Made by a program: the position numbers and the translations under genes. From Stylophora pistillata (lineage: Eukaryota): a stretch of DNA of 64,000 bases. The stretch lies in the NCBI RefSeq assembly GCF_002571385.2, contig NW_019217870.1, positions 604,661 to 668,660 on the forward strand, in the 5' to 3' direction. Position 1 is the first letter of the stretch. The number at the start of each line of letters is the position of its first letter. The notes under the pieces are model-generated. The model worked only from the letters and a program-made list of their open reading frames with translations. It had not been told where the DNA came from and did not search any database. Shown here one piece after another: positions 35,475 to 37,883 of the stretch.

Positions 35475-37883
35475 ATGGCGGAAGTTGGCCCAGAAACTAG
35501 CCCTCAATCTAGCCCTTTCCATATTGAAGCCATGATTCTTGCTTATGAAGAAGTCACGACGTCTGAAAAACGATTGAAAGCCAGATTTTTAAAAGATGTC
35601 AAAGTTAAAGAGAGAGACTCGAAACGACCGATGGTTGAAAGGCCGGTATGGCCGTATGAATACTGGCGCACTAACTATACAGACTTCGACGATTTGGAGG
35701 CTAGCAGTACTCGGGATTTCAATCCACAGACTCGACGTCGCGTGCCTTTAAACGTGACAAGTGAAAGTCAAGCATCACAAAAAGGAGATTGGGATCATTT
35801 CAGTTTGCCAGAGACCAGACAAAACGAAGTAAACCCGGTGACATATGAAGCTAACACCGCGAAGGCCGAATCCACGGCCGAGCACTCCTCAGAGGGAATG
35901 AATAATGCCATCCAAAGAGCGATTAACGTGCTATCCGATCTGCAAGACTTAACATCAGTATTTCTTAAGATTTACAGTGAGGCAGGAGAAAAAGATTTAA
36001 CAGTGAAAGAAGGTGAAAAGACGCAGGTAACACTGGCCGAAGGAAATCCCGACATATCGAAACCGGAAGTAATGGATGAACACCAACAAAGAGAATTAGC
36101 CAAGGGGAATGATCAGTTTCCAGGTATCACGCCAGATAACACTCTTAGTTTTAATTTAAAATCCAACAGCAACACATTCGAAGGCTCAGAAGAACAAAGA
36201 ACTAACAGTCCAACAGAGGAGTCAAACACACAAAGCAAAGAAATAGTAGCCAAGGATCTTACTCTAAAGAACACATCTTTCCCTGGGGAGTGTGAAGTTC
36301 CGCTTGCAGAAGAAGAATCTGAGACGGAACAGAGTTCTGAAGGTGGAGATACAAAGGAAGACCTTGGTACACTCGACTGTCTTAACAAGGACACTTGCAT
36401 CAACGTAGAAATGCGATCCGAAGAAACCCTAGTGGAAACAAAGATTGGTTTAAAGGGAAAAAGAGCAGATGACTCTAAAGAGAGGCAACCCACAATTGTT
36501 GAATCAGAGCAAGACACAAGGGACAGATATATCAATAAAACCCTTGAGTGCAGTAAAGAGATTAGCACACCTGAGATACCTCATTTTAAAAGTGAATTGC
36601 AAGTTCCAGTTTCACAACATTCTGTATTACACAATTTTATCCAAAAATGGTTACCAAGAATCAGCATTGATGAGGCCACTAGTCAATACATCAGGCATTT
36701 AGTAAGAAGTTTAATGGACAAGACCATCCTTCAACTGCAGGAAGCATGTCCTATATTCTCCAATTGCTACATCATAGAAACTGGAAGTATGGCAGAGGGT
36801 ACCAAGATAGGCCACCCTGATGAGTTTGATTTCACTGTTGCCCTTCCTGTGCTGGCTGATCCAGATATGGCAGAACTATTGTATATCAAACTTGGAATAC
36901 AAGCACGGCTTCATGAACAAATGTCTGACAAGGTTCTTTCTTTCCTGAGCCAGCTTTCTTCGGTGGATACTTCTTATGGCAAATTGCTTACAAATGCTTT
37001 TCTCCTCCAGGTTTTCCGTGACACTTTAAGGAAACATTTACCAATGGGATGGGAAATGTTACAGGAAAGTAACATGCACATGATGAGAGTATTTCTAAAG
37101 AATCAGACTTTAACCATTCATTTACAATGTACCTCTGGACCACATTCAGGTTTTATCCTGTCTATTGATGTATGTTTTGGGATTCCTCTTAACACCGAGC
37201 GACTTCAGACTGTTCTTGTTGGAGATGGTTTTCATGCTGTTCATCTTTCCCACGTTCAAAGTGATTGTATGCGATTGAACACGGGAGTCGTTGCAGTTAT
37301 CAGTCGAAACCCTTTGGTTGGAGCACGTTTGTTTTATGAAACAGAGCCGTACAGATTTCACTGCAACAATTTGGCTGTAGACTGTTACAAACTTTCAAAA
37401 CATGTAGCAAACATGTTTCTGCCAAAAATCAAGAAAAACAATTGTAGTTTATGTGAGGACACCTTGATCCCATCCTTTTACATGAAAACTGCAGTAGTTT
37501 TCATGATGGATGTCTACACTGAGGAAAATGACTGGTCTGGTGTTCAGCTTGGAAACAGACTGATAGAAATATTTGAAATTTTATACCGTTGTTTCTTACA
37601 CCAATATTTAGCTTACTACAGCTATCCAAATAATGGTCTACAGCAAGAGCAGGCAATGATATATAATCCAACAAATGGCAGCCTTAAGGTGGGGATTGGC
37701 TTGGATGATGACAAACCTTGTGCTATCCCATGTTTGGAAGACCTTAATTTTGCAACATCTCACAGAGACACGACCATTGCAGTTAAAAACTACTGGAGAT
37801 ACATGCAAAGTGAAGAATGGACAGTCTGTGACCTGCTACACAAACTCACTGAGATCCTCTATGTCTTCAAATTTACAGAATAA
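35475..37883 (+). CDS. cGAS-like receptor (cGLR; Mab-21/cGAS nucleotidyltransferase), single exon, with long acidic N-terminal extension
   Basis: Uninterrupted ORF (upstream in-frame ATG at 35397; better-context ATG at 35475). NTase signature TGSMAEGTKIGHPDEFDF, third acidic residue in LSIDVCF, Mab-21 C-lobe motifs CYKLSK, PSFYMKTAV, W...QLGNRLIEIF. Confidence 0.9.
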   Translation: MAEVGPETSPQSSPFHIEAMILAYEEVTTSEKRLKARFLKDVKVKERDSKRPMVERPVWPYEYWRTNYTDFDDLEASSTRDFNPQTRRRVPLNVTSESQASQKGDWDHFSLPETRQNEVNPVTYEANTAKAESTAEHSSEGMNNAIQRAINVLSDLQDLTSVFLKIYSEAGEKDLTVKEGEKTQVTLAEGNPDISKPEVMDEHQQRELAKGNDQFPGITPDNTLSFNLKSNSNTFEGSEEQRTNSPTEESNTQSKEIVAKDLTLKNTSFPGECEVPLAEEESETEQSSEGGDTKEDLGTLDCLNKDTCINVEMRSEETLVETKIGLKGKRADDSKERQPTIVESEQDTRDRYINKTLECSKEISTPEIPHFKSELQVPVSQHSVLHNFIQKWLPRISIDEATSQYIRHLVRSLMDKTILQLQEACPIFSNCYIIETGSMAEGTKIGHPDEFDFTVALPVLADPDMAELLYIKLGIQARLHEQMSDKVLSFLSQLSSVDTSYGKLLTNAFLLQVFRDTLRKHLPMGWEMLQESNMHMMRVFLKNQTLTIHLQCTSGPHSGFILSIDVCFGIPLNTERLQTVLVGDGFHAVHLSHVQSDCMRLNTGVVAVISRNPLVGARLFYETEPYRFHCNNLAVDCYKLSKHVANMFLPKIKKNNCSLCEDTLIPSFYMKTAVVFMMDVYTEENDWSGVQLGNRLIEIFEILYRCFLHQYLAYYSYPNNGLQQEQAMIYNPTNGSLKVGIGLDDDKPCAIPCLEDLNFATSHRDTTIAVKNYWRYMQSEEWTVCDLLHKLTEILYVFKFTE

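What the first reader, a model, noticed from the sequence alone, without database searches (positions are those of the whole stretch)
35475..37883. Catalytically intact cGLR with unusual accessory regions
Seen: GS motif, DEFD and third Asp are intact. The ~400-aa N-terminus is mostly acidic and low-complexity, unlike the basic tail of vertebrate cGAS, but starts with an aromatic-rich module (FHIEAMILAYEE..PVWPYEYWRTNYTDFDDL) and an amphipathic helix. There is no vertebrate Zn-thumb, but there is a KKNNCSLC insert before SFYMKT and a C-terminal extension with CAIPC. Established: cGLRs make cyclic dinucleotides for STING and are expanded in stony corals. Inference: a subfamily with a distinct trigger, where an acidic nucleic-acid-mimic tail could autoinhibit and the extra Cys could bind Zn.
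Basis: partly seen in the sequence, partly recalled or inferred. Interest (0 to 1): 0.75.

Follow-up and report, generated by a model that had tools for sequence, protein, structure and literature searches.

The report
Tethered-motif acidic cGLR, swapped between corals
This coral gene encodes a cGAS-like enzyme with an intact active site and a conserved front-end module, shared with bivalve relatives, that is predicted to fold back onto the enzyme and likely latches it until a trigger other than DNA or RNA arrives, and the gene itself has likely jumped between the distantly related corals Stylophora and Porites.

Summary
Confirmed: a single-exon, transcribed, 802-aa Stylophora pistillata cGAS-like receptor (cGLR) with an intact GS / E450-D452-D565 site and a cGLR fold (VIA Z 16.8 to Sp-cGLR1). 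(1) It belongs to an uncatalogued coral-and-bivalve subfamily. An N-terminal PxxPxxxW motif (61 of 73 relatives; about 0.5 expected) is tethered by an acidic linker of 17-355 aa to an acidic core with a CxxC hairpin. With a deep alignment AlphaFold orders the module (pLDDT 81-93; pTM 0.71), which suggests it docks on the core. The core is not basic (pI about 6), so a nucleic-acid-mimic tail is unlikely; a latch with a non-nucleic-acid trigger is more likely. (2) The protein is 87-88% identical to Porites copies, even in the linker (84%), but 58-63% (core) to Orbicella, Acropora and Montipora. The neighbouring RRM2 is only 81% identical to Porites and its tree rejects grouping with Porites. Overlapping contigs from independent runs link the two genes. 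Coral-to-coral gene transfer is the best reading (about 0.7; direction open). No activity, ligand or Porites DNA was tested. New variant of a known kind; interest 0.65.

The parts
35475..37883 (+). Single-exon gene for an 802-aa cGLR-family nucleotidyltransferase (Stylophora pistillata SpisGene7052 locus)
   Evidence: contigs of RNA-type runs X10, X13, X7 cover it without joint or frameshift
35514..35684 (+). N-terminal module, residues 14-70: helix 14-35 plus an extended segment; predicted to be ordered
   Evidence: pLDDT 81-93 per 10-residue block in the deep-alignment model; conserved
35640..35666 (+). Tethered motif R56-P-x-W-P-Y-x-x-W64, the subfamily hallmark
   Evidence: 31 of 37 coral-like and 30 of 36 distant rows; 0.28 and 0.26 expected by shuffling
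35685..36569 (+). Acidic, mostly disordered linker, residues 71-365
   Evidence: pI 4.5; pLDDT below 50 over 75-134 and 179-364; D+E exceeds K+R in 56 of 61 motif-bearing rows
35889..35996 (+). Amphipathic helix 139-174 inside the linker, seen in the coral-like group
   Evidence: pLDDT about 87; alignments
36570..37880 (+). cGLR / Mab-21 catalytic core, residues 366-802, acidic (pI 5.9)
   Evidence: Pfam Mab-21_C above cut-off, Mab-21 below it; Foldseek to cGAS E 1.7e-9; VIA Z 16.8, rmsd 4.0, 302 aligned to Sp-cGLR1
36783..36830 (+). GS activation-loop motif and E450 / D452
37167..37169 (+). Third catalytic acid D565
36582..36584 (+). H370, candidate Zn ligand (inferred)
   Evidence: H370, C657, C660 and C749 are all kept in 36 of 36 coral-like rows that cover them
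37443..37454 (+). C657-x-x-C660 at a predicted hairpin tip, candidate Zn knuckle distinct from the cGAS thumb
   Evidence: 58 of 80 rows; strands 651-653 and 661-663; 2 changes on a 52-row tree
37719..37733 (+). CAIPC in an insertion before the last helix; only C749 is conserved
40203..41207 (-). Neighbour: intronless RRM2-like gene, used as control for ancestry (not Porites-like)
41583..54463 (+). Neighbour: PEX6, used as a second control (69% Desmophyllum, 67% Oculina, 57% Montipora)

Best explanation
It is a cGAS-like receptor with an intact catalytic site whose conserved N-terminal module is predicted to fold back across a long acidic tether onto the enzyme and likely acts as a built-in latch, so that a trigger other than double-stranded DNA or RNA would release it to make a cyclic dinucleotide for coral STING. 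Shown: the gene, its transcript contigs, the fold, the triad, the conserved motif, the acidic linker and core, and the CxxC. Predicted: an ordered module, with docking inferred from pTM. Inferred: a Zn site (H370, C657, C660, C749), the latch role, the trigger (a basic protein ligand, or cutting or removal of the tethered part), the product, and STING as receptor. Separately, this copy likely reached Stylophora or Porites by horizontal transfer between the two lineages around the time Porites diversified (about 0.7).
For: Fold and site. Motif in 61 of 73 scored relatives against about 0.5 by shuffling, at 17-355 aa from the core, with an acidic linker in 56 of 61. Named distant carriers are bivalves: Pinctada imbricata twice, Mactra antiquata. 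In the deep-alignment model, residues 11-70 reach pLDDT 81-93, including a non-helical stretch with isolated bridges. pTM is 0.71, above the 0.58-0.63 ceiling computed for a core-only placement with 20-31 A error elsewhere. Cores are acidic (1 of 71 above pI 8.5), whereas Li et al. report pI above 8.5 for nucleic-acid-sensing cGLRs and propose non-nucleic-acid ligands for acidic ones (PMC9980059). S. pistillata has 7 STINGs and two active cGLRs. Transfer: identity to Porites is 90-91% in the core and 84% in the linker, against 58-63% and 28-35% to Orbicella, Acropora and Montipora. The window groups with Porites copies at 100/100 on a 0.24 branch, and window+Robusta alone is rejected (p-AU 7e-7). 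RRM2 2.3 kb away is 81% to three Porites species, and window+Porites is rejected (p-AU 1e-4). Contigs from separate runs overlap across the cGLR-RRM2 interval.
Against: No enzyme, ligand, metal or STING test was possible. No coordinates or error matrix were available, so docking rests on pLDDT and pTM arithmetic (the ceiling rises to 0.67 if unplaced residues have 15 A error). Docking does not tell a latch from a structural part. The search query carried the motif, which may enrich motif-bearing hits. Three rows have Asn or Thr at a catalytic column (P0135, P0155, P0186). MiD49, recalled as a non-catalytic member of the fold, scores as well as the cGLRs (Z 16.4). C749 is missing in 8 of 20 distant CxxC rows. 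Transfer rests on the labels of two Porites records; their DNA and flanks were not seen, and no synonymous divergence was computed.
Confidence: 0.4

Rival explanations
1. The N-terminal module is a structural part of the enzyme, needed for folding or activity rather than holding it off. The linker is then just a tolerated spacer, and the module or helix 139-174 may form part of the ligand-binding face.
For: Very high pLDDT of the module, as for a core element. The motif is kept even where the linker is about 17 aa. The family profile lacks the Trp-Pro segment that follows the third Asp in Sp-cGLR1, so the N-terminal Trp-Pro could stand in for it (speculative).
Against: Six of 36 distant rows with a long N-terminus lack the motif yet keep the triad columns. 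An acidic linker kept over 10-fold length change suggests a role beyond spacing.
Confidence: 0.27
2. It is a nucleotide-binding or nucleotidyl-transferring Mab-21-fold protein with no role in STING immunity (scaffold, protein modifier or metabolic sensor), like MiD49/51 or the orphan MB21D2.
For: Mostly single copy, with a tree that largely follows coral groups, unlike fast-expanding immune cGLRs. MiD49 ties with cGLRs in the fold search. Li et al. note that many cGLRs were inactive in vitro.
Against: GS and all three acids are almost invariant. The profile is closest to Sp-cGLR1 and cGAS. In fish, the genes that cross between species are mostly immune genes (PMC12107551 abstract), which fits an immune role by analogy only.
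Confidence: 0.2
3. One reading: a dsRNA or dsDNA sensor whose acidic tail mimics nucleic acid and blocks the binding groove.
For: The linker is acidic in 56 of 61 motif-bearing rows. Residues 14-67 are basic in this protein (pI 9.5) and could add positive surface.
Against: Core pI about 6, spine helix neutral or acidic. The N-terminal helix region has a median net charge of -1 across coral-like rows. The linker can be very short.
Confidence: 0.12
4. On the gene's history: no transfer. The Porites-labelled records are contaminated or mislabelled pocilloporid sequence, or the large unnamed clusters are really Pocillopora and Stylophora's gene is simply vertical.
For: The cGLR topology (P0012,(window, others)) mirrors the RRM2 topology (P0198,(window, 93% cluster)). 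The whole clade leans to Robusta (70/90; SH-aLRT 80). Only 40 of 306 members of the largest cluster were read for names.
Against: Two different Porites species carry two different copies (91% to each other) on 672 and 684 kb contigs, each with 99% unnamed cluster-mates. P. evermanni RRM2 clusters with P. lobata and P. lutea. No Pocillopora name appeared among the members read. An unconstrained linker at 84% is hard to square with a sister cluster whose RRM2 already differs by 7.5%: within Porites, 1.8% RRM2 difference goes with 13% linker difference.
Confidence: 0.22

Closest known systems
Sp-cGLR1 (PDB 8GJY) and Cv-cGLR1 (8GJW), Li et al. PMC9980059
   Same: Best profile hit (E 7e-27) and best fold hits (Z 16.8 and 16.7, about 300 aligned, rmsd 3.7-4.0); same GS plus three-acid site; Sp-cGLR1 is from the same species.
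   Different: 14% identity. Those enzymes sense dsRNA or dsDNA, and such sensors are reported as basic. Here the core is acidic and carries a tethered N-terminal module, a CxxC hairpin and a C-lobe insertion.
Acidic, ligand-unknown cGLRs Pd-cGLR (XP_027049992.1) and Sp-cGLR2 (XP_022802921.1)
   Same: Acidic coral cGLRs proposed to answer a non-nucleic-acid ligand: the nearest functional analogy.
   Different: Different proteins. The screened constructs shown there do not carry this N-terminal motif, as read by eye. They are active as purified, which is untested here.
Vertebrate cGAS
   Same: Fold (Foldseek E 1.7e-9, TM 0.62 on the target), triad, long disordered N-terminus.
   Different: No Zn-thumb. 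The tail is acidic, not basic (cGAS tail charge recalled), and begins with a conserved ordered module.
MAB21L1, MB21D2, MiD49 (Mab-21-fold proteins without shown immune synthase activity)
   Same: Same fold (Z 15.0, 13.4, 16.4).
   Different: Much weaker sequence match (MAB21L1 E 5.5e-12, C-lobe only; MB21D2 E 0.007). Here the triad is nearly invariant across the family.
Fish-to-fish horizontal transfers of immune genes (Policarpo et al., PMC12107551, abstract read)
   Same: Excess identity, tree conflict and lack of synteny for a host gene between distant animals.
   Different: Here the animals are corals of the robust and complex clades (split at least 245 Mya; PMC5730576). Only protein-level evidence was available, and direction is unresolved.

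Membership tests
cGLR (Li et al. criteria) | Active-site motif GS, X8-20, [DE]h[DE]h, then h[DE]h | tested here: met
   T-G-S437-438, 11 residues, E450-F-D452-F, I-D565-V
cGLR (Li et al. criteria) | Spacing X50-90 before the third acid | tested here: inconclusive
   112 residues here. An entry of the paper's own Table S1 (PFX22685.1) also exceeds 90 by eye count, so the bound is not strict. D565 aligns to the third acid of cGAS and Sp-cGLR1.
cGLR (Li et al. criteria) | Homology over both the NTase core and the C-terminal helix bundle | tested here: met
   Pfam Mab-21 (440-574, below cut-off) and Mab-21_C (637-722, above); one profile match spans both
cGLR (Li et al. criteria) | Predicted structural homology to cGLR / CD-NTase | tested here: met
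cGLR (Li et al. criteria) | Ligand-dependent cyclic dinucleotide synthesis and STING signalling | not testable with these tools
   needs biochemistry
Nucleic-acid-sensing cGLR / cGAS type | Basic core (pI above 8.5) with a positive spine groove | tested here: not met
   core pI 5.9-6.2; spine net charge about 0; surface charge on the model itself could not be inspected
Vertebrate cGAS | Zn-thumb insertion | tested here: not met
   gap opposite the thumb; the CxxC lies after the following helix
MAB21L1/2 | High sequence likeness to MAB21L1 over the whole length | tested here: not met
   phmmer E 0.48, C-lobe only; profile E 5.5e-12, C-lobe only
Animal-to-animal horizontal transfer (criteria of PMC12107551) | Gene tree conflicts with species tree | tested here: met
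   against 78
Animal-to-animal horizontal transfer (criteria of PMC12107551) | Synonymous divergence below the genome background | not testable with these tools
   no Porites DNA was reachable (one search gave three loci at 49-68% only); linker identity was used as a proxy
Animal-to-animal horizontal transfer (criteria of PMC12107551) | Non-syntenic position | tested here: inconclusive
No RRM2 in 2.5 kb behind the Orbicella-type gene of L001.
Animal-to-animal horizontal transfer (criteria of PMC12107551) | Contamination excluded | tested here: inconclusive
   Window side supported (16 runs of one organism label in 6 studies; overlapping contigs and similar DNA depth); Porites side not inspected

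The most novel reading that the evidence does not exclude
A so-far uncatalogued cGLR clade of corals and bivalves works as a tripwire: a PxxPxxxW clamp on a cleavable acidic tether keeps an acidic, zinc-braced synthase off until a pathogen protein or protease displaces it, making it a protein-sensing animal cGAS relative. One such immune gene crossed between robust and complex reef corals (Stylophora and Porites) by horizontal transfer and is still expressed.
Probability: 0.2. Interest if true: 0.9.

Novelty: new variant of a known kind. Interest (0 to 1): 0.65.

Why it matters
Most animal cGLRs have no known trigger; Li et al. name this as the main limit of their screen. A subfamily with a sharply defined tethered motif and an acidic core gives direct truncation and mutation tests for non-nucleic-acid activation. 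Core-only constructs would also miss this regulation. The gene was not found in the 3,020-protein catalogue, although it comes from the best-studied coral. If the transfer holds, it is a host gene moved between coral clades at least 245 My apart. I found no such case in the searches made. It would extend animal-to-animal transfer of immune genes from fish to cnidarians and would justify a genome-wide Stylophora-Porites scan.

Tried and rejected
No whole genome was held, so paralogues and flanks outside the window were not checked; inside the window there is no second copy. Single-sequence phmmer against the PDB was uninformative (best E 0.19). The first AlphaFold run with 30 close sequences was poor (pLDDT 44.7) and its Foldseek result weak. 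The complex job (core + module + Zn) gave no verdict: score 0.00, my alignment was not used and the partner fold was uncertain, so it says nothing either way. The ESM Atlas gave only generic Mab-21 clusters for the core and no usable hit for the module. No relatives were found in viral contigs or prokaryotic genomes with coral-derived patterns. The viral fold search had one marginal hit (E 1e-3, 9% identity), so there is no sign of a viral vector. The PEX6 search returned only 4 proteins, none from Porites or Pocillopora, so it tests clade affinity only weakly. GC3 does not separate the gene from its neighbours (0.38, 0.38, 0.34). No terminal repeats enclose the gene. Direction of transfer: trees with the clade held to Robusta or to the acroporid group could not be told apart (p-AU 0.098). 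The idea that the whole scaffold is Porites contamination was rejected by RRM2. Earlier findings of this scan: nothing. The upstream spliced gene had no Pfam match. Runs X21-X24 held next to none of the words; this is not evidence of absence.
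Full report
What is there. The window holds one open frame of 802 aa at 35475-37883 (+). It matches Stylophora pistillata SpisGene7052 (PFX28243.1) except for a 26-aa gap in that model; the neighbour PEX6 is named for the same species on a contig of the same length. Twenty of 24 listed runs hold the stretch, 16 of them under one organism label in 6 studies. I laid 4 of those runs. Contigs of three RNA-type runs cover the frame with no joint and no frameshift. A spliced joint of the upstream gene appears in those three and not in the DNA run, and a PEX6 intron bin is uncovered in two of them, so the contigs are likely transcripts. 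Contigs give no expression level. Of 11 listed base differences tested inside the frame, 7 change a residue, 4 are silent and none is a stop (the tool showed only part of its list).

The catalytic core. Residues 366-802 match Pfam Mab-21_C above its cut-off and Mab-21 below it. A profile of 88 relatives hits Sp-cGLR1 best (E 7e-27), then cGAS (about 1e-24), with MAB21L1 far behind and only in the C-lobe. Those 88 rows include 55 of the 72 hits; 16 short fragments and one near-duplicate were left out. The deep-alignment model (pLDDT 71.4, pTM 0.71) matches cGAS by Foldseek (E 1.7e-9). By VIA it matches Sp-cGLR1, Cv-cGLR1, a CdnB and MiD49 at tied Z of 16.4-16.8. GS and the three acids are nearly invariant. 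There is no cGAS Zn-thumb; instead a CxxC sits at a predicted hairpin tip after the next helix. CAIPC lies in an insertion before the last canonical helix.

The subfamily. The full-library search found 72 representatives at E up to 0.001. A motif PxxPxxxW (RPVWPYEYW here) lies ahead of the core in 31 of 37 coral-like and 30 of 36 distant rows; shuffling gives 0.28 and 0.26. Fifteen of the 88 rows were dropped for lacking the GS column or 25 residues of N-terminus. The six coral-like misses look N-truncated. The linker is 225-355 aa in the coral-like group and 17-188 aa in the others, and it is acidic in 56 of 61. Named distant members are Pinctada imbricata (two) and Mactra antiquata; 3 of 9 clusters asked about had a name. 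CxxC is present in 58 of 80 rows and needs 2 changes on a 52-row quick tree. In that tree a 31-row group holding all CxxC rows has SH-aLRT 92; the motif reaches beyond it. H370, C657, C660 and C749 are all kept in 36 of 36 coral-like rows. In distant rows C749 goes with CxxC in 12 of 20 against 3 of 19 without (rows are related, so the p of 0.008 overstates it). The query itself carried the motif, which may favour motif-bearing hits.

Is it catalogued? In the six readable supplements of Li et al. (PMC9980059) five accession terms and four motifs of this protein gave no hit, nor did six family spellings of the motif. The WPYE/WPYN hits in Table S1 are all internal, after the third acid in eight of nine rows. 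Cells are cut at 400 characters and one supplementary PDF was unreadable. I saw 9 of about 50 Stylophora rows of Table S1 and the coral rows of Table S3. Paper searches found no description of this subfamily. Of Li et al. I read the abstract, Results parts 1-2 of 3, the bioinformatics methods and the Discussion. Of PMC12107551 I read the abstract and outline; of PMC5730576 and the choanoflagellate preprint 10.1101/2025.09.04.674280, passages; the rest were listings only.

How it most likely works. With 30 close sequences the module was disordered; with 88 it reached pLDDT 81-93 over residues 11-70, and helix 139-174 about 87, while the rest of the linker stayed under 50. A 30-residue extended stretch rarely scores so unless it is packed on something (general knowledge). 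A pTM of 0.71 is above what a core-only placement allows for unplaced errors of 20-31 A (0.58-0.63) and fits core plus about 100 placed residues (0.70-0.73). So the module is predicted to fold back on the core; where, I could not see. The core is acidic (pI 5.9; family medians 6.1 and 5.5; 1 of 71 above 8.5) and the spine helix is neutral to acidic, whereas dsRNA and dsDNA sensors are reported above 8.5. I therefore favour a latch that is released by a non-nucleic-acid trigger, followed by cyclic dinucleotide synthesis for one of the seven S. pistillata STINGs (0.4). Membership as a cGLR by sequence and fold is near certain; activity is untested.

An unexpected history. Across stony corals the gene behaves as a mostly single-copy orthologue (Orbicella has two adjacent copies). 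The core is 63% identical to Orbicella, 59% to Acropora cervicornis and 58% to Montipora capricornis, in line with a 62% mean for Stylophora-Acropora orthologues. To Porites evermanni and P. harrisoni it is 90-91%, and the disordered linker is 84% (28-35% in the others); the two Porites are 95% and 87% to each other. Stylophora is a robust coral; Porites as complex, and Orbicella, Desmophyllum and Oculina as robust, are recalled. The window is sister to three Porites-type lineages at 100/100 on a branch of 0.24, and placing it with the robust group alone is rejected (p-AU 7e-7). The control behaves normally. RRM2, 2.3 kb downstream, is 81% to P. lobata, P. lutea and P. evermanni and 92.5% to a large unnamed cluster; it groups with Desmophyllum (90/92), and grouping it with Porites is rejected (p-AU 1e-4). 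The two genes are linked in the organism: an X10 contig spans 35327-38943, while X13 and X7 contigs with RRM2 start at 38360 and 38294, and DNA depth is similar over cGLR, RRM2 and PEX6. A slowly evolving enzyme at 81% next to a disordered linker at 84% cannot both be vertical. Transfer between the two lineages, near the time Porites diversified, is the best reading (about 0.7).

Limits of that reading. It rests on the labels of two Porites records, with only 40 of 306 and 40 of 44 cluster members read for names; their DNA was out of reach. Direction is open. For the reverse: the clade leans weakly to the robust group (70/90; 80; unresolved), and its shape mirrors the RRM2 branch of Stylophora's relatives. 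No viral or prokaryotic relative turned up and no terminal repeats enclose the gene, although repeats and an assembly gap lie just upstream. Fish-to-fish transfer of immune genes is the precedent; five searches showed no coral-to-coral case, in a library that lacks most subscription papers.

Verdict. This is a new variant of the cGLR kind: an acidic, tethered-motif, CxxC-bearing subfamily of corals and bivalves, with a likely horizontal transfer between Stylophora and Porites. Interest 0.65.

Noticed in passing
window 40203-41207 (-) and 41583 (+): An intronless, coral-specific RRM2-like gene sits head to head with PEX6, 375 bp apart. The Desmophyllum copies of both lie on contigs of one length (751,161), so the pair looks conserved.
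   Followed up: partly
window 37883-40203: The cGLR and RRM2 converge. RNA contigs run through the interval between them (X10 to 38943; X13 and X7 from about 38300), so their 3' ends may overlap.
   Followed up: no
window 35280-35368: A 43-bp-arm hairpin repeat lies about 110 bp before the start codon. A related element lies about 470 bp before the Orbicella-type gene in L001 (283-337, 81% over 57 bp), but also at window 49638-49685 and 50550-50603, so it is a dispersed repeat.
   Followed up: partly
window 30853-33082: A 2.2-kb element with about 850-bp inverted arms (88-91% complementary) inside the upstream gene. Its reverse-transcriptase-like and endonuclease-like remnants, read by eye, recall a decayed Penelope-type retroelement (label recalled).
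   Followed up: no
window 34032-34188 and 33252-33387 (-): First exons of a spliced, divergently transcribed gene with no Pfam match. An assembly gap (34261-34296) and high-copy repeats (about 34297-35100) separate it from the cGLR and could mark an insertion boundary.
   Followed up: partly
proteins P0128, P0132, P0133, P0137; P0149, P0155: Four distant members end in [DE]TKL, like a class I PDZ-binding or weak peroxisomal signal, and two end in Cys-rich tails (CCLIL, CCPLQ) that recall prenylation signals (labels recalled).
   Followed up: no
proteins P0139, P0142, P0148, P0150, P0151: These lack C749 but read CxxCCH at the hairpin, which could supply alternative Zn ligands.
   Followed up: no
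PFX28243.1 and CAH3017256.1: Both GenBank models cut a short piece (26 and 16 aa) out of the core at about residues 486-511. RNA contigs show no such intron in the window, so catalogues built on these models hold a damaged domain.
   Followed up: partly
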